Source of the DNA: a virus
Taxonomy: Duplodnaviria; Heunggongvirae; Uroviricota; Caudoviricetes
Direction: 5' to 3' (one strand)
Length of the DNA: 6,245 nucleotides
Virus record (IMG/VR): IMGVR_UViG_3300014625_000039
The notes below the pieces were generated by a model. It was not told the origin of the DNA. It did not search any database and worked only from the letters and a program-made list of their open reading frames with translations. Positions 115 to 5,481 of this stretch are shown here, piece after piece; within the stretch, counting starts at the first letter, position 1, and each line of letters begins with the position of its first letter. The translations under genes and the position numbers were made by a program.

Positions 115-190
115 GCCGATATAGCTCAGTTGGTAGAGCAGCGCATTCGTAATGCGAAGGTCGTAGGTTCGACTCCTATTATCGGCACCA
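115..190 (+). tRNA. thrW: tRNA-Thr, anticodon CGU
   Basis: Folded by hand into a 76-nt cloverleaf: acceptor stem GCCGATA(115-121)/TATCGGC(180-186), D-stem GCTC/GAGC, anticodon loop TTCGTAA with CGT at 148-150, T-loop TTCGACT, discriminator A and encoded CCA (188-190). Anticodon CGU reads ACG (Thr). The symbol is by analogy to enterobacterial thrW, a known phage integration target. Confidence 0.9.
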
Positions 191-204
191 TTTAAATCAA
201 GTAG

Positions 205-1368
205 TTACACATCATTAGTACCTTCCTTATTTTTTGACTGGGACAAATTTGGGACCGATGGGTTCAGGATCGAGTCTATTTGCCGTGCGTGTTCTGTAAG
301 GTGATTAGGTGCAAGGTGAGCATATCGACGAACCATTTCGATAGACTCCCAGCCTCCCATTTCCTGTAACACTGACAACGGGACTCCGGCTTGAACCAGC
401 CAACTTGCCCAGGTGTGTCTCAAGTCGTGAAATCTGAAATCATCAATACCAGCCCGTCTCAGCGCCGCTTTCCAGGCTGTGTTTGCGTCATACCGCATCT
501 TCCTTACTGTTGGCGCTTTCGTTCCGTCTGGTTTGGTACAGCTTTCCTTGTACACAAATACCCAACGGTGATGATTCCCGATTTGTTTTTTCAAAACGCG
601 ACATGCAGTATCATTCAGCGCAACGCCGATTGCGCGGTTTGATTTACTCTCTTCCGGGTTTATCCATGCCACCCGGCGCTGCATATCTATTTGTTGCCAT
701 TCAAGGTTGATGATGTTCGAGCGTCTTAAGCCTGTTGCCAGTGCAAATTCAACAACAGACTTTAATGGCTCTGGACATTCATCAATCAGCCTTTGTGCTT
801 CATGGGGCTCCAGCCAGCGGATCCGTTTATTCTTTGGTTGAGGCACTTTAATAATTGGTGCCTTATCCAGCATTTTCCATTCACGCTCTGCGGCTCTTAG
901 TAGGGCCTTTATAAATGAAAGATGCGTAGCCTTCGTTGCAACGGACGCTGGTTTTGGCGTGTATTCTGGAACAGGTTTCCCTTTTTTTCTGCATGCTTCT
1001 GCCCTGAGTTTCCAGTTTTCCTCATGACGCCGGTTCGTCATTTTCTGCATTGCTGAATAAATTTTTGATTCAGTAATGTCTCTTAGTTGCATTCCTGCGA
1101 AATGTTGAAGCCAGAATCCGATCCGGCTTTTGTCATCGTCCAGTGATTTTTTATGTGCTTTCTCTTCAAGCCACCTGACACACGCTTCCTCGAACGTTAT
1201 ATCAGGTATTTCACCAAGTTTGCTGACCCGCCATGCTTCAGCCTTTAGCTTGTCATGGAGTTCTGTCGCCTGCCTTTTGTCCTTTGTTCCAAGAGACTGT
1301 TTAAATCTTTTACCGTTCGGCAATGTGAAACTGGCGTACCATATTTCACCTCTGCGGAAGAGTGACAT
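205..1368 (-). CDS. int: Site-specific tyrosine integrase, P22 Int-like
   Basis: 387-aa ORF with ATG at 1368-1366 preceded by AGGA. The C-terminal catalytic region [39 protein letters not shown] carries the R..H..R..Y tyrosine-recombinase signature. The N-terminus [24 protein letters not shown] closely matches my recollection of phage P22 Int, which also integrates at thrW. Confidence 0.93.
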
Positions 1369-1595
1369 TTTCTTTCCTCTGTTATGCCATCACCCGCGCT
1401 CACCTGGACAGTATGCAGCGGAGACTGAAGAGCCGCAATGCAGGCTTGTCGTGTTGTGAGGTAAGGAGATTTATTCTTAGTGGGATCTTTGCGTGTTGCC
1501 TGAAGACGCCCTGTGCGTATCCAGTTAATGGCAGTCGGTCTGGATATCTTGAGAAAATGACAGGCCTCATCGAGTGTGAGGCTGTATGGCTCCAT
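1245..1595 (-). CDS. xis: Excisionase (Xis), P22-like, with helix-turn-helix
   Basis: Start taken at the internal Met (ATG 1595-1593) preceded by GAGGTG, not at the 144-aa maximal ORF start. The 116-aa product begins [31 protein letters not shown], a Xis/AlpA-type DNA-binding motif. Its 3-prime end overlaps the int 5-prime end by 124 nt in another frame. Confidence 0.8.
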
Positions 1596-1900
1596 TATTT
1601 CACCTCTTGCTGTGACATTGTTGAAAAATGGATACCAGCTCGTTGCTGCCAGACGATCCAACCGAGAGTCATATCCCATGCCATGTATTCGTTATCGCCG
1701 TTTTTTGCTCTCCGACGATCTACTAAGTCACCGAAACGCTTTTCCATGAATAATTCATAAGCTTCGCGTTCATCTGGTTCTACTTCCAGCGATAGGAGTG
1801 CGATTTCATAAGCACGGCGCTCAATATCGTCTCGCACGTCAAGGCTGCTGATACGCTCTTTAATTTCTTTAATCAGTTCTTTGTCGGTAAAAGTGATCAT
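1595..1900 (-). CDS. Hypothetical small acidic phage protein (101 aa), function unknown
   Basis: Complete ORF; its stop overlaps the xis start as TAATG, and its own start overlaps the upstream gene stop in the same way. GGAGG lies about 10 nt upstream of the ATG. Rich in Asp/Glu; no motif I can name. Confidence 0.6.
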   Translation of the reverse strand: MITFTDKELIKEIKERISSLDVRDDIERRAYEIALLSLEVEPDEREAYELFMEKRFGDLVDRRRAKNGDNEYMAWDMTLGWIVWQQRAGIHFSTMSQQEVK

Positions 1901-2262
1901 TATGCTCCAGCCTCCGGTGCTTTTGGCATTATTGCCCAGTGAGTGATATTGACGTTTTCAAGGTCCCCGACCTGAAATGTCCACTGCCATTCTCCGGTTT
2001 CTTTTTGTCCCCAGGTGTACCAGAGAGAACGCCAGCCAATTAGCCAGCCTTCTCCGTTAGCATCGAATAACAAAACACTTTCATTTGCTGGTGGCAGTTC
2101 AGTTGACACTGGTATTACTTTGTTTTCCTGTGCTGCACATTTAGCTTCAAGCGCATCGAATTTACGCACCAGGTATTCAGCATCTGTTTCATTCACTTTC
2201 AGATCTCGCGGTACACATCTCCCACGAAGAAACCCTTCCATTTCGAAAACATTCATGCGCAT
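1900..2262 (-). CDS. DUF551-like phage protein (120 aa)
   Basis: The C-terminal half (GEGWLIGWRSLWYTWGQKETGEWQWTFQVGDLENVNITHWAIMPKAPE) shows the Trp-rich pattern ending in THW..P..PE that I associate with the phage DUF551 family. TAATG-coupled to the downstream gene. Start codon uncertain (ATG at 2262 or 2256, no clear SD). Confidence 0.65.
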   Translation of the reverse strand: MRMNVFEMEGFLRGRCVPRDLKVNETDAEYLVRKFDALEAKCAAQENKVIPVSTELPPANESVLLFDANGEGWLIGWRSLWYTWGQKETGEWQWTFQVGDLENVNITHWAIMPKAPEAGA

Positions 2263-2287
2263 TTGCGTATCAAAGTGGCTGTTGCGG

Positions 2288-2560
2288 ATGATGATTGTGC
2301 TTCACGTCATGTGCCTGCTGCCGCTGCTGACCGGTTGCGGAAGTACGCGAACAGTTTACGTACCGATTCCGGCGGTACCGTTGCCAGCAAGCCTGACTAC
2401 TGAAACTCCCCAGCCAGTCATTCCCGAGCCGCTGACCTATGGGGCCAGTCTGGATCTGAATGTGAGCCTGCTTTCGGCGTTGGGACAATGCAATATTGAC
2501 AAAGCGGGGATTCGAAGTATCGAGATGCGCCGTAACGCTTTGCTGGCAGCAGTCAAATAG
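2288..2560 (+). CDS. Putative outer-membrane lipoprotein, proline-rich, Rz1/o-spanin-like (about 90 aa)
   Basis: N-terminus MMIVLHVMCLLPLLTGC is a hydrophobic signal peptide ending in the lipobox LLTG|C, followed by a Pro-rich segment (VYVPIPAVPLPASLTTETPQPVIPEP) and a later Cys. An alternative start at ATG 2255 would add a basic n-region (MRICVSKWLLR). No clear SD at either start. Confidence 0.45.
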   Translation: MMIVLHVMCLLPLLTGCGSTRTVYVPIPAVPLPASLTTETPQPVIPEPLTYGASLDLNVSLLSALGQCNIDKAGIRSIEMRRNALLAAVK

Positions 2561-2586
2561 TCCGGACAAAGAACAGGAATATATTT

Positions 2587-2937
2587 ATGCCCCCTCGAAC
2601 TCCAAAAGCCTGCCGCGTTCGCGGCTGCCGTAATACCACGACAGACCCGTCAGGCTACTGCGAAAGCCACAAAAGCGAAGGCTGGAAGCAATACAAGTCA
2701 GGACAATCCCGTCATCAGCGCGGTTATGGTTCTAAGTGGGATGTTATCCGTGTGCGTGTGCTGCAACGTGACAAAGGCCTGTGTCAGTTATGTCTGCGTG
2801 CTGGTGTGGCGCGTGAAGCGAAAACCGTTGATCACATCATCCCTAAAGCACATGGCGGCACTGATGCCGACAGTAATCTGCAGAGTCTGTGCTGGCCGTG
2901 TCATAAGGCGAAGACGGCCCGTGAACGGCTTAAGTGA
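2587..2937 (+). CDS. HNH endonuclease (terminase-associated type)
   Basis: 116-aa ORF with AGGA 8 nt upstream of the ATG. Cys pairs (CRVRGC, CQLC, CWPC) and the HNH core DHIIPKAHGG...N...H are present. Its position immediately upstream of terS/terL is typical of HK97-like packaging modules. Confidence 0.85.
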   Translation: MPPRTPKACRVRGCRNTTTDPSGYCESHKSEGWKQYKSGQSRHQRGYGSKWDVIRVRVLQRDKGLCQLCLRAGVAREAKTVDHIIPKAHGGTDADSNLQSLCWPCHKAKTARERLK

Positions 2938-3062
2938 TAATAACTCTCAACTGTCTGAGGGGAGGGGCGGGTCAAATCTCTGTGACCTGACGTCTTCCGG
3001 ACTGCCCGCCCCATCGTTTTTTTATACCCGCGAAAAATGAAATTTAACCAGGAGTGCCGCAT
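2938..3062. promoter_or_regulatory. Intergenic region between HNH and terS: candidate cos / packaging-initiation site
   Basis: 125-bp non-coding gap exactly where HK97-like phages place cos (between the HNH gene and terS). It contains the G-rich run GAGGGGAGGGGCGGG and an 8-bp inverted repeat GGGGCGGG (2964-2971) / CCCGCCCC (3005-3012). Assignment is by position and composition only. Confidence 0.35.
2964..3023 (+). terminator. Possible intrinsic terminator-like hairpin with T-run (alternative reading of the cos-region repeat)
   Basis: GC stem GGGGCGGG/CCCGCCCC followed 4 nt later by TTTTTTT (3017-3023). The 33-nt loop is long for a classical terminator, so this is weak. Confidence 0.3.
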
Positions 3063-3557
3063 ATGGCTGGAACGGCGGGGCGTTCCGGGCGTCGCCCCAA
3101 GCCAACGGCGCGCAAGGCGCTGGCCGGAAACCCCGGCAAGCGAGCCCTGAACAAAGATGAACCTGTTTTTACGCCCATCAAAGGCGTTGAGCCACCGGAG
3201 TGGTTCGCAGAAGAAAATCTCCCTCTCGCCACGATCATGTGGCAACTGACAACCAAAGAACTCTGCGGTCAGGGCCTGTTGTGCGTGACTGACCTCGCGG
3301 TGCTTGAGCGGTGGTGCGTGGCCTATGAGTTCTGGCGACGTGCCGTGAAAAATATTGCCATACAGGGCAACACCATCACCGGTGCAATGGGCGGCAGGGT
3401 CAAAAATCCGGAGCTGACCGCCAAAAAAGAACAGGAGTCCGAGATGAGCAGCACGGGGGCAATGCTCGGACTCGACCCCAGCAGCCGCCAGCGTCTGATT
3501 GGCCTGGCGGGGCAGAAGAAAGCCACTAACCCGTTTCTGAAAATCATCGAGTCATGA
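3063..3557 (+). CDS. terS: Terminase small subunit (P27/HK97-like family)
   Basis: Start chosen at ATG 3063, with AGGAG 8 nt upstream; the ORF track's upstream start at 3054 is GTG. The basic N-terminus ([29 protein letters not shown]) and overall length fit P27-type small terminases. Its stop overlaps the terL start (ATGA at 3554-3557). Confidence 0.8.
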
Positions 3558-5287
3558 GCCGGAAATCTTACCCCAACGTAAATGCTGCCAATCAGTATGC
3601 CCGTGATGTTGTGCGCGGAAAGATTGTGGCCTGCCAGTTTGTGATTCAGGCCTGCCAGCGCCATCTTGATGACCTGATGGCGGAAAAAAGTAAGTCGTTT
3701 CGTTACCGCTTCGACAAGGACCTGGCTGAACGGGCCGCCAAATTTATTCAGCTGTTGCCGCACACCAAGGGTGAGTGGGCATTCAAGAGGATGCCCATCA
3801 CGCTGGAGCCGTGGCAGCTATTTGTGGTCTGCTGTGCGTTTGGCTGGGTCAATAAAGGGTCCCGGCTGCGCCGCTTCCGGGAGGTGTATACCGAAATCCC
3901 CCGTAAGAACGGCAAATCGGCAATCTCTGCCGGTGTTGCCCTGTATTGTTTTGCCTGTGATAACGAGTTTGGCGCGGAAGTGTATTCCGGTGCCACGACA
4001 GAGAAACAGGCGTGGGAAGTCTTTCGCCCGGCGCGACTGATGTGTAAACGCACACCCATGCTGACGGAAGCGTTCGGGATTGAGGTTAACGCCTCAAACA
4101 TGAATCGTCCGGAGGATGGCGCGCGGTTTGAACCGCTGATCGGTAACCCCGGTGATGGTTCATCACCCCACTGTGCGGTGGTGGATGAATATCACGAGCA
4201 CGCCACCGATGCGCTTTACACCACGATGCTTACCGGGATGGGGGCGCGACGTCAGCCACTGATGTGGGCCATTACTACTGCCGGGTACAACATTGAGGGG
4301 CCGTGCTACGACAAGCGACGGGAAGTTATCGAGATGCTCAACGGGTCGGTACCCAACGATGAACTGTTCGGGATCATCTATACCGTTGACGAAGGCGATG
4401 ACTGGACCGACCCGCAGGTGCTGGAAAAAGCTAACCCGAATATTGGCGTGTCGGTTTATCGCGAATTTTTGTTAAGTCAGCAGCAGCGTGCGAAAAATAA
4501 CGCCCGTCTGGCAAACGTCTTTAAAACAAAACACCTCAATATCTGGGTGTCGGCGCGTTCGGCGTATTTCAACCTGGTGAGCTGGCAGAGCTGCGAGGAT
4601 AAATCACTGACCCTTGAGCAGTTCGAGGGGCAGCCGTGCATTCTGGCCTTTGACCTGGCGCGTAAACTGGATATGAACAGCATGGCGCGACTTTATACCC
4701 GCGAGATTGACGGTAAAACGCATTACTACAGTGTGGCCCCGCGTTTCTGGGTACCGTATGACACGGTGTACAGCGTCGAGAAAAATGAAGATCTACGGAC
4801 AGCCGAACGCTTTCAGAAATGGGTGGAAATGGGCGTTCTGACCGTTACCGATGGTGCGGAAGTGGATTATCGCTACATCCTCGAGGAGGCTAAAGCGGCG
4901 AACAAAATCAGCCCGGTCAGTGAGTCACCCATCGACCCCTTCGGGGCGACCGGGCTGTCACATGACCTTGCTGATGAAGACCTGAACCCCATCACTATCA
5001 TTCAGAACTACACCAACATGTCCGATCCGATGAAAGAGCTGGAAGCGGCAATTGAATCGGGGCGCTTTCATCATGATGGCAATCCCATCATGACCTGGTG
5101 TATCGGCAACGTGGTCGGCAAAACCATTCCGGGTAACGATGATGTGGTGAAGCCCGTCAAAGAGCAGGCGGAAAACAAAATCGATGGTGCAGTTGCGCTG
5201 ATTATGGCGGTTGGCAGAGCCATGCTGTACGAGAAAGAAGACACGCTGTCTGACCACATTGAGTCCTATGGGATCCGCTCGCTTTAA
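3554..5287 (+). CDS. terL: Terminase large subunit (HK97-like Terminase_1 family)
   Basis: 577-aa ORF with a deviant Walker A (EIPRKNGKS) in the N-terminal ATPase region and an acidic-residue-rich C-terminal nuclease-like region. Translationally coupled to terS. Confidence 0.93.
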
Positions 5288-5298
5288 CTGAGGTAATT

Positions 5299-5481
5299 AT
5301 GATCATGCTGATTCTCGCGCCTCTGGTGGGCGTGCTGGGGGCGCTTTTGCTGGCGTATGGTGCCTGGCTGATTTATCCCCCGGCGGGGTTTGTTGTTGCC
5401 GGGGCGTTGTGCCTGTTCTGGTCGTGGCTGGTGGCGCGATATCTCGACCGTACACAGTCGTCTGTCGGCGGAGGTAAATAG
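5299..5481 (+). CDS. Small membrane protein, two predicted transmembrane helices (60 aa); function unknown
   Basis: GAGG lies 5 nt upstream of ATG 5299. Sequence [60 protein letters not shown] has two hydrophobic segments separated by a YPP turn and a polar C-terminal tail. Its stop TAG overlaps the GTG start of the portal gene. Confidence 0.5.

What the first reader, a model, noticed from the sequence alone, without database searches (positions are those of the whole stretch)
2288..2560. Orphan proline-rich lipoprotein upstream of the packaging genes: spanin remnant or exclusion lipoprotein?
It has a textbook lipobox and a Pro-rich mature region resembling Rz1-type o-spanins, and it sits where a lysis cassette would end (just before HNH/cos/terS). 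There is no holin, endolysin or Rz partner, and no second + frame is open across this region to encode an embedded Rz. An o-spanin cannot work alone, so it is either a relic of a deleted lysis cassette or has another role, such as superinfection exclusion at the outer membrane like the Cor or Llp lipoproteins.
Basis: partly seen in the sequence, partly recalled or inferred. Interest (0 to 1): 0.5.

Follow-up and report, generated by a model that had tools for sequence, protein, structure and literature searches.

The report
Leftover spanin gene after prophage deletion
The small lipoprotein gene is the outer-membrane half (Rz1/LysC) of a phage SfV-type lysis "spanin" pair, stranded when a roughly 11-12 kb deletion in a prophage at the thrW tRNA gene removed the regulatory, replication, holin and endolysin genes and two-thirds of its partner gene Rz; it is an ordinary relic of prophage decay.

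Summary
The ORF at 2288-2560 is real. It carries a lipobox (LLTG-C17) and a Pro-rich mature region. It belongs to the known Rz1-like LysC o-spanin family (Pfam PF23793, 64 bits; PHROG 456, E 4e-27) and matches SfV Rz1 in 89 of 90 residues. It is orphaned because of a sharp deletion junction at 2268/2269 (2-nt TA microhomology). DNA to the left is 99.5% SfII-like early-left DNA (int, xis, yfdT, DUF551). DNA to the right is 99% SfV-like (Rz tail, Rz1, HNH, cos, terS, terL). The family's conserved upstream ATG and GGAGG ribosome-binding site for Rz1 lie left of the junction and are also lost. Every intact relative examined has holin, endolysin, Rz and an overlapping LysC. Right-arm relatives 99.95-99.98% identical still have the full cassette, so the deletion is recent. 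The same junction occurs, 100% identical, in three other public datasets. I found no Cor/Llp or defence-family similarity and no nearby promoter-like site. The antisense ORF is not conserved. Verdict: an inert spanin remnant in a decaying prophage, of low interest.

The parts
115..190 (+). tRNA-Thr (CGU), the thrW attachment site of SfII/SfV-type prophages; marks the left prophage end
   Evidence: ARAGORN. proA-thrW-int has the same layout in ET474, L009 and L029.
205..1368 (-). Tyrosine integrase; part of the left (SfII-like) arm
   Evidence: ORF list. Annotated as integrase in SfII and ET474. The left arm 145-2269 is 98.7% identical to SfII.
1248..1595 (-). Excisionase-type HTH protein
   Evidence: Pfam HTH_17 E 1.6e-8; PHROG 2907 excisionase E 1e-50.
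1903..2262 (-). DUF551-type phage protein; the last intact gene of the left arm
   Evidence: PHROG 583 E 1.7e-82; Pfam DUF551 just below its cutoff. 99.5% identical to SfII 26590-26959.
2253..2269 (-). 17-nt 3' stub of the yfdR-like 5'-deoxynucleotidase gene; left edge of the deletion
   Evidence: In SfII the gene SfII_34 ends at 26943 and the match to the window stops at 26959.
2268..2269 (.). Deletion junction: the dinucleotide TA is shared by both parental sequences (microhomology)
   Evidence: Three-way alignment of window, SfII and SfV. BLAST breakpoints are 2269 (left arm) and 2268 (right arm) in every relative.
2269..2403 (+). 3' remnant of the i-spanin gene Rz: codons 87-130 plus stop. 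It has no start codon, no N-terminal transmembrane segment and no residues 1-86.
   Evidence: The translation IKVAVADDDCASRHVPAAAADRLRKYANSLRTDSGGTVASKPDY equals SfV Rz residues 87-130. SfV Rz is annotated at 36090-36482.
Signal peptide 2288-2335, lipobox Cys codon 2336-2338, mature lipoprotein 2336-2557.
   Evidence: Pfam PF23793 LysC 64.4 bits; PHROG 456 E 3.9e-27. Differs from SfV Rz1 only at the last residue, K versus R. Sites that vary among homologues fall mostly at LysC third codon positions, 38 of 40 codons beyond the Rz stop.
2255..2257 (+). In-frame ATG supplied by the left arm. It would give MRICVSKWLLR-MMIV..., a 28-residue lipoprotein signal with a charged n-region, but no Shine-Dalgarno motif precedes it.
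   Evidence: No gene product with this 101-aa sequence is on record.
2587..2937 (+). HNH endonuclease associated with the terminase
   Evidence: Pfam HNH E 5e-16; PHROG 144.
2995..2996 (.). Point where the right and left ends of the linear SfV genome record meet (cos end by that record's coordinates)
   Evidence: The last 40 nt and first 70 nt of the SfV record are identical to window 2956-2995 and 2996-3065.
3063..5287 (+). terS (P27 family, 3063-3557) and terL (3554-5287); start of the intact-looking packaging module
   Evidence: Pfam Terminase_4, TIGR01558. The exact terL protein is found in 64 blocks of the collection.

Best explanation
The gene is the o-spanin (Rz1, named LysC by Pfam and PGAP) of an SfV/SfII-type temperate phage integrated at thrW.

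In the intact phage it is translated in the +1 frame over the 3' end of Rz. Its product is lipidated at the lipobox Cys and sorted to the outer membrane; residue +2 is Gly, not Asp. It pairs through its C-terminal part with the inner-membrane i-spanin Rz. After holin and endolysin have acted, the complex disrupts the outer membrane.

In this prophage one illegitimate-recombination event with 2-nt microhomology joined the 3' end of the yfdR-like gene to codon 87 of Rz. That removed about 11.6 kb on the SfII map. The lost segment held immunity, replication, the Q antiterminator and late promoter, holin, endolysin, Rz codons 1-86, and the native SD and ATG of Rz1.

What remains is a coding sequence for the complete mature lipoprotein. 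It has no partner, no native translation start and no known promoter. I infer that it is silent or harmless and has no function of its own. It is still an open frame only because the deletion is recent.

Shown: homology, the junction, the Rz remnant, loss of the upstream start, and the intact cassette in relatives.
Inferred: lack of expression, and lack of function.
For: Family assignment:
- Pfam LysC 64.4 bits (cutoff 27). PHROGs 456, 3001 and 214 are all 'Rz-like spanin'.
- 89 of 90 residues are identical to SfV Rz1.
- SfV spanins are catalogued in the spanin survey PMC6139136.

Junction:
- The left arm matches SfII up to 2269 (99.5%). The right arm matches SfV from 2268 (99%).
- All intact relatives lose homology exactly at 2268.
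- In SfII the two flanking points are 26,959 and 38,528.

Rz remnant:
- It equals SfV Rz residues 87-130.

Normal context:
- All 10 places shown for the exact 90-aa protein carry the cassette holin-endolysin-DUF2570(Rz, 130 aa)-LysC, with Rz and LysC overlapping.
- L009 carries both arms in one thrW prophage, 5 kb apart.
- L024 and L026 have a right arm with 1-2 mismatches in 3,978 nt and a full cassette.

Native start:
- An upstream ATG with GAGG/GGAGG 9 nt before it is conserved in 7 of 7 homologues. It is the start used in the annotations of SfV, of Mulock and by PGAP. It lies left of the junction.

Expression:
- Only one sigma-70-like site was found in 1500-3200, at 1923-1950. That is chance level (1 found against 1.7 expected).

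One component is not enough:
- Knockouts of either lambda Rz or Rz1 give an absolute lysis defect (PMC6139136).

The junction is real:
- It is identical in GCA_036779455.1, a human bile metagenome contig and a Logan assembly.
Against: - Expression was not measured. The promoter scan is a crude consensus search and cannot exclude read-through or a weak promoter.
- The ORF is undamaged, and an in-frame ATG at 2255 and a TTG at 2282 could in principle start translation of a processable lipoprotein.
- Which start codon the family really uses has not been established experimentally. Gene callers also pick the ATG at 2288.
- The rest of the host genome is unknown. A cognate Rz from another prophage could exist in trans.
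Confidence: 0.9

Rival explanations
1. The stranded lipoprotein has been co-opted as a stand-alone outer-membrane lipoprotein that protects the lysogen, for example by superinfection exclusion at a receptor as Cor or Llp do.
For: It would be an outer-membrane lipoprotein if made (lipobox, Gly at +2). The junction brings an in-frame ATG at 2255 that gives a canonical charged n-region. The ORF is intact, and the allele occurs in at least three datasets.
Against: - No similarity to any family other than spanins in Pfam, PHROGs or PADLOC at E up to 1.
- The mature protein is identical to the ordinary lysis-cassette protein found in 538 blocks of the collection, so nothing has changed in it.
- No promoter-like site or SD lies in front of it.
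- The copies of the allele are 100% identical, so they give no evidence of selection.
Confidence: 0.03
2. The remnant still works as a spanin subunit in trans. When transcribed, for instance by read-through or during induction of another prophage, it pairs with an SfV-type Rz supplied by a co-resident or superinfecting phage, or it serves as a recombination donor for such phages.
For: The mature LysC is complete and nearly identical to SfV Rz1. SfV-like prophages are very common in E. coli; parts of the window match 5,425 of 5,426 complete genomes, with a median of 3 places per genome.
Against: A phage that brings Rz of this family also brings its own overlapping Rz1, because the two genes share DNA. 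A second copy is therefore redundant. No promoter is evident, and the rest of the host genome was not available.
Confidence: 0.04
3. The antisense ORF 2270-2569 (99 aa) is the real gene and the lipoprotein frame is incidental.
For: It is open in the window and in SfV.
Against: It has no family match (Pfam none; best PHROG E 0.019). In the five divergent homologues every antisense frame carries 1-7 stops. Beyond the Rz stop, variable sites fall 22/14/38 on LysC codon positions 1/2/3. That is the pattern of coding on the + strand.
Confidence: 0.01
4. The junction is an assembly chimera between two different prophages (one SfII-like, one SfV-like), so the gene is not orphaned in the living cell.
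For: The two arms are closest to two different reference phages. All carriers found are short-read contigs that stop inside the portal gene.
Against: The junction has only 2 nt of shared sequence, so there is no repeat to mislead an assembler. It is reproduced exactly in three independently produced assemblies from NCBI, ENA and Logan. One prophage at thrW (L009) naturally carries both arms.
Confidence: 0.02

Closest known systems
Rz1 (o-spanin) of Shigella/Enterobacteria phage SfV (NP_599084) and the Pfam family PF23793 'Rz1-like lysis system protein LysC'
   Same: 89 of 90 residues are identical over the part present. Same lipobox, Pro-rich linker and conserved SLDLNVSLLSALGQCNxDK motif with the single periplasmic Cys. 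Same downstream neighbours: HNH, cos, terS, terL.
   Different: Here the first 15 codons of the annotated 112-aa protein, with its ATG and SD, are deleted. The overlapping partner Rz is cut to its last 44 codons. Holin, endolysin and the late regulatory region are absent.
Two-component spanins with overlapped architecture (P2 LysB/LysC type, as classified in PMC6139136)
   Same: In intact relatives LysC starts in the +1 frame inside the i-spanin gene and runs beyond its stop. Rz and LysC share 116 nt by the 90-aa gene call and 182 nt by the SfV annotation.
   Different: No functional pair exists in this window. Only the o-spanin half is complete.
Lambda Rz/Rz1 (embedded architecture)
   Same: Both are outer-membrane lipoproteins with a Pro-rich periplasmic domain and one Cys for homodimer disulfides. 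Both components are required (PMC6139136).
   Different: Lambda Rz1 lies wholly inside Rz and has a 40-aa mature form. This protein has a 74-aa mature form and belongs to another sequence family. The survey groups the SfV o-spanin with those of Mu, D108, ENT47670, SfIV, APSE-1 and APSE-2.
Cor (phi80/N15/HK022) and Llp (T5) superinfection-exclusion lipoproteins
   Same: Small phage-encoded outer-membrane lipoproteins.
   Different: No sequence relationship was detected. Those are expressed from their own signals as lysogenic-conversion or early genes (my own knowledge). No such signal is seen here.
Other decayed SfV-like prophages at thrW (E. coli ET474, L009) and the separate rearrangement in metagenome scaffold L032
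   Same: Same kind of prophage decay, with internal deletions that remove early or lysis regions. ET474 and L009 also share the attachment site and the int-xis-yfdT-DUF551 arm.
   Different: The breakpoints differ. ET474 has an IS1-associated rearrangement with no lysC. L009 keeps the lysis cassette but lacks heads. In L032 the break lies about 10 nt upstream of the native Rz1 ATG.

Membership tests
Rz1-like o-spanin LysC (Pfam PF23793 / PHROG 456) | Sequence match to the family profile above the curated threshold | tested here: met
   64.4 bits against a cutoff of 27, E 9.3e-18, profile positions 2-66 of 69. PHROG 456 E 3.9e-27.
Rz1-like o-spanin LysC (Pfam PF23793 / PHROG 456) | N-terminal lipoprotein signal with lipobox and an invariant Cys | tested here: met
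   LLTG-C fits the lipobox pattern. The Cys is conserved in 8 of 8 aligned homologues. Caveat: with the 2288 start the n-region has no Lys or Arg. Actual SPase II processing cannot be tested here.
Rz1-like o-spanin LysC (Pfam PF23793 / PHROG 456) | Outer-membrane sorting (no Asp at +2) and a periplasmic Cys for intermolecular disulfide | tested here: met
   Mature N-terminus is C-G-S. There is a single further Cys in GQCN, conserved 8 of 8. The sorting rule and the disulfide role come from the literature (PMC6139136) and are not shown for this protein.
Functional two-component spanin system | A cognate i-spanin gene (N-terminal TMD plus coiled-coil periplasmic domain) overlapping or adjacent | tested here: not met
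   Only Rz codons 87-130 remain (2269-2403). The TMD and residues 1-86 are deleted. No other Rz/DUF2570 ORF is in the window.
Functional two-component spanin system | Placement in a lysis cassette with holin and endolysin under late transcription | tested here: not met
   The window has no holin or endolysin. All 10 places shown for the exact protein have them. Only one promoter-like site was found, 340 nt upstream, at chance level.
Functional two-component spanin system | Outer-membrane disruption at lysis | not testable with these tools
   Needs complementation of an Rz1-null phage.
Unimolecular spanin (T1 gp11 type) | Lipobox at the N-terminus plus a C-terminal transmembrane domain | tested here: not met
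   The C-terminus ...IEMRRNALLAAVK is short and charged, with no hydrophobic span.
Cor / Llp superinfection-exclusion lipoproteins | Sequence or profile similarity to those families | tested here: not met
   At E up to 1 only spanin families and three unannotated PHROGs (E 0.03-0.14) match. PADLOC gave nothing. Direct pairwise comparison with Cor or Llp sequences was not run.
Cor / Llp superinfection-exclusion lipoproteins | Expression from the prophage (own promoter) and blocking of a receptor such as FhuA | not testable with these tools
   The consensus scan found no nearby promoter, but expression and exclusion need experiments.

The most novel reading that the evidence does not exclude
The junction created a new gene start. 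The left-arm ATG at 2255 fuses 11 new codons (MRICVSKWLLR) to the spanin signal peptide and gives a canonical charged n-region. A full outer-membrane lipoprotein could then be made from read-through transcription in the lysogen and be kept for a role of its own, such as envelope modification or phage exclusion. That would be a spanin half caught at the moment of exaptation.
Probability: 0.03. Interest if true: 0.35.

Novelty: already known. Interest (0 to 1): 0.07.

Why it matters
It matters little beyond annotation. The case shows that an apparently orphan o-spanin next to packaging genes can be explained by locating the deletion junction and the tail of the partner gene in the other reading frame. 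It also shows that the annotated start of overlapped o-spanins deserves care. Here the family's conserved ATG and Shine-Dalgarno motif lie upstream of the ATG that a reader or gene caller would pick. For genome annotation, the locus should be labelled as a defective SfV/SfII-like prophage at thrW with a truncated Rz pseudogene and a partnerless lysC. It should not be labelled as a lysis system or an exclusion gene.

Tried and rejected
- Exact-match scans for the junction (34-mer, then 23-mer) found nothing in GTDB species representatives, IMG/VR and JGI metagenomes. No complete E. coli genome spans it. The junction was finally found by looking up exact gene products (terL, and the 87-aa lysC gene call) in NCBI, ENA and Logan assemblies.
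- Look-up of the 101-aa product starting at ATG 2255: not on record.
- NCBIfam has no model that hits LysC. PADLOC has no hit for LysC, for the antisense ORF or for the two neighbouring small proteins.
- The antisense ORF as the real gene: rejected on stops in homologues and on the codon-position pattern.
- A u-spanin reading: rejected, because there is no C-terminal TMD.
- A reading of the whole element as a capsid-forming satellite rather than a deleted prophage: considered, because int/xis abut the packaging genes. It is not supported. The junction cuts through two genes (yfdR and Rz/Rz1). Right-arm relatives with only 1-2 mismatches carry the full early and lysis regions.
- Structure prediction and the large protein-database searches were not used. 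The family assignment was already unambiguous.

Full report
**Layout of the window.** The window starts with tRNA-Thr(CGU) at 115-190. On the minus strand follow an integrase (205-1368), an excisionase-type HTH protein (1248-1595), a yfdT-like ORF (1598-1900) and a DUF551-type protein (1903-2262). On the plus strand follow the lipoprotein ORF (2288-2560), an HNH endonuclease (2587-2937), a P27-family small terminase (3063-3557), the large terminase (3554-5287), a 60-aa membrane protein (ymfR type, 5299-5481) and the start of a portal gene. This is the left end of a prophage at thrW. The same proA-thrW-int arrangement is annotated in E. coli ET474.

**The observation.** The ORF, the lipobox and the Pro-rich region are real.
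- The 90-aa product is MMIVLHVMCLLPLLTG-C17-GSTRTVYVPIPAVPLPASLTTETPQPVIPEPL...
- The 11 residues ending at Cys17 fit the standard lipobox pattern.
- The mature part has 74 residues. Its 8 Pro all fall within a 25-residue stretch, and it has one further Cys.
- The protein matches Pfam PF23793 'Rz1-like lysis system protein LysC' at 64.4 bits (cutoff 27, E 9e-18). It also matches several PHROGs, all annotated 'Rz-like spanin', the best at E 3.9e-27.
- This is a member of a known family, not a chance resemblance.

**Why it is alone.** Megablast of 1900-2950 against phage genomes splits the query cleanly.
- Positions 1900-2269 are 99.5% identical to SfII 26590-26959, which is early-left operon DNA.
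- Positions 2268-2950 are 99.0% identical to SfV 36347-37029, where SfV has Rz, Rz1 and orf53 (HNH).
- A three-way alignment puts the switch at the dinucleotide TA (2268-2269), the only bases shared by both parents.
- In SfV, Rz is 36090-36482 and Rz1 is 36301-36639, so the junction falls inside both genes.
- From 2269 the second + frame reads IKVAVADDDCASRHVPAAAADRLRKYANSLRTDSGGTVASKPDY-stop. That is residues 87-130 of the 130-residue SfV Rz. The N-terminal membrane anchor and residues 1-86 are gone.
- On the left, 17 nt of the 3' end of the yfdR-like 5'-deoxynucleotidase gene survive.
- On the SfII map the two flanking points are 26,959 and 38,528, so about 11.6 kb is missing. The annotated part of that interval holds cI, cro and cII. 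In intact relatives the DNA upstream of Rz also holds replication genes, the antiterminator, a DNA methylase, holin and endolysin.

**Normal context of the same protein.**
- The exact 90-aa sequence is indexed in 538 blocks of the assembly collection.
- All 10 places shown have the order holin - 158-aa endolysin - DUF2570 (Rz, 130 aa) - LysC overlapping the Rz 3' end - HNH. Nine of them continue with terS and terL.
- One of the 10, L009, is a thrW prophage that carries both arms of the window about 5 kb apart. The two arms therefore belong to one phage type, and no inter-prophage event is needed.
- Contigs L024 and L026 have right arms with only 1-2 mismatches over 3,978 nt, and they still carry the whole cassette. 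The deletion is therefore recent.
- The fact that lysC is still an open frame says nothing about selection.

**Is the junction real?**
- It is absent from all 5,426 complete E. coli genomes, from GTDB representatives, from IMG/VR and from JGI metagenomes.
- Product look-ups found it, 100% identical, in three places: NCBI assembly GCA_036779455.1 (L029), a human bile metagenome contig (ERZ935037, L030) and a Logan assembly of run ERR7450838 (L031).
- With only 2 nt of microhomology there is no repeat to cause misassembly.
- I take it as a genuine allele of one clonal lineage.

**Start codon and expression.**
- In all seven homologues examined (SfV, SfIV, SKA5, 118970_sal3, SfII, Mulock, ST512-KPC3phi13.5) an ATG lies 66 nt upstream of the MMIV codons, with GAGG or GGAGG 9 nt before it.
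- The Glu codon that supplies GAG is never GAA, although neighbouring synonymous sites vary.
- This upstream ATG is the start used in the SfV record, by PGAP, and in the Mulock record, which also marks a ribosome-binding site before it.
- It would sit 46 nt left of the junction, so it is deleted here.
- What remains is ATG 2288/2291 (no Lys or Arg in the n-region, no SD), TTG 2282, and an ATG at 2255 that belongs to the left arm and is in frame only because of the junction.
- The late promoter and antiterminator region are gone.
- A consensus scan of 1500-3200 found one sigma-70-like site (1923-1950, 9 of 12 matches), no more than shuffled sequence gives.
- I infer that the gene is silent or nearly so. 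This was not measured.

**Mechanism.** By homology, and from the literature on spanins, the intact protein is an outer-membrane lipoprotein. It binds the periplasmic C-terminal part of the inner-membrane i-spanin, and together they remove the outer membrane as the last step of lysis. In lambda, knockout of either gene gives an absolute lysis defect (PMC6139136). That survey lists SfV's i-spanin in a group with SfIV's and its o-spanin in a group with Mu's. With Rz truncated, and holin and endolysin deleted, this copy cannot do that job.

**Rivals.**
- Cor/Llp-like exclusion: no profile similarity in Pfam, PHROGs or PADLOC. No expression signal was found. The protein is unchanged from its lysis-cassette form.
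- Antisense ORF 2270-2569: open only in the window and in near-identical SfV. It is broken by 1-7 stops in every antisense frame of the five divergent homologues. Beyond the Rz stop, variable sites are 22/14/38 at LysC codon positions 1/2/3. It is not a gene.
- Trans-complementation with another phage's Rz: possible in principle but redundant, because any Rz of this family comes with its own overlapping Rz1.
- Assembly chimera: unlikely, for the reasons given above.

**Comparison and novelty.** The protein is a member, by descent, of the LysC/Rz1 o-spanin family, with overlapped architecture in intact phages. The locus is not a functional two-component spanin system. Prophage decay by internal deletion at this site is common. 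ET474 has an IS1-associated rearrangement that joins the same arms without lysC. L009 lacks the head genes. L032 has a separate breakpoint about 10 nt upstream of the native Rz1 ATG. Nothing here is new in kind.

**Verdict.** This is an ordinary relic and already explained. Interest is about 0.07. The least ordinary reading still open is that the junction-made ATG at 2255 lets the lysogen make a stand-alone lipoprotein with a new role. I give that about 3%.

Noticed in passing
window 2956-3065: The right and left ends of the linear SfV genome record meet exactly at 2995/2996, with flanks 100% identical. This places the cos end (by that record's coordinates) between HNH and terS. It lies inside a G-rich/C-rich inverted repeat: GGGGCGGG (2966-2971 region) ... 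CCCGCCCC (3005-3012).
   Followed up: partly
L032 (ENA ERZ28576352 scaffold_22367), locus 780-841: A different rearrangement in the same gene pair. Minus-strand early genes (DUF4752 type) are joined to Rz about 10 nt upstream of the native Rz1 ATG. That removes the GGAGG motif but keeps the ATG. It is an independent breakpoint about 55 nt from the window's. It was found through the same 87-aa gene call, so the proximity is partly an ascertainment effect.
   Followed up: partly
window about 6204-6276 (portal gene); L029 and L030 contig ends: Two independent short-read assemblies carrying this allele both end inside the portal gene, at positions equivalent to window 6204 and about 6276. This suggests that a repeat, such as an IS element or a second prophage copy, begins there in the carrier genome.
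   Followed up: no
L002/L015 (E. coli ET474, NZ_CP100954.1 3595763-3598014): The ET474 thrW prophage has the same int-to-DUF551 arm (99.3%) and HNH-to-portal arm (96.7%). Between them sit yfdR, a frameshifted ORF, an IS1 and two minus-strand hypothetical genes, with no early region and no lysC. This is another decay route for the same prophage type.
   Followed up: partly
window 1248-1368: The excisionase-type ORF (1248-1595, minus strand) overlaps the 5' end of the integrase ORF (205-1368) by about 120 nt. PGAP in ET474 annotates a shorter integrase (372 aa), so the integrase start is uncertain.
   Followed up: no
window 5299-5481: A 60-aa two-TM membrane protein (ymfR type; PHROG 502 'membrane protein', E 2.5e-28) sits between terL and portal in every relative examined. 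Its function is unknown.
   Followed up: no
L023, L025, L027, L028 (relatives with the identical terL protein): The DNA just upstream of HNH is mosaic. Some relatives have a more divergent LysC allele (81-84% identical over 2268 to about 2500) or a lambda-type Rz (Pfam Phage_lysis), plus extra ORFs between the spanins and HNH. The spanin/HNH boundary (about window 2575-2586) is therefore a recurrent recombination point.
   Followed up: no
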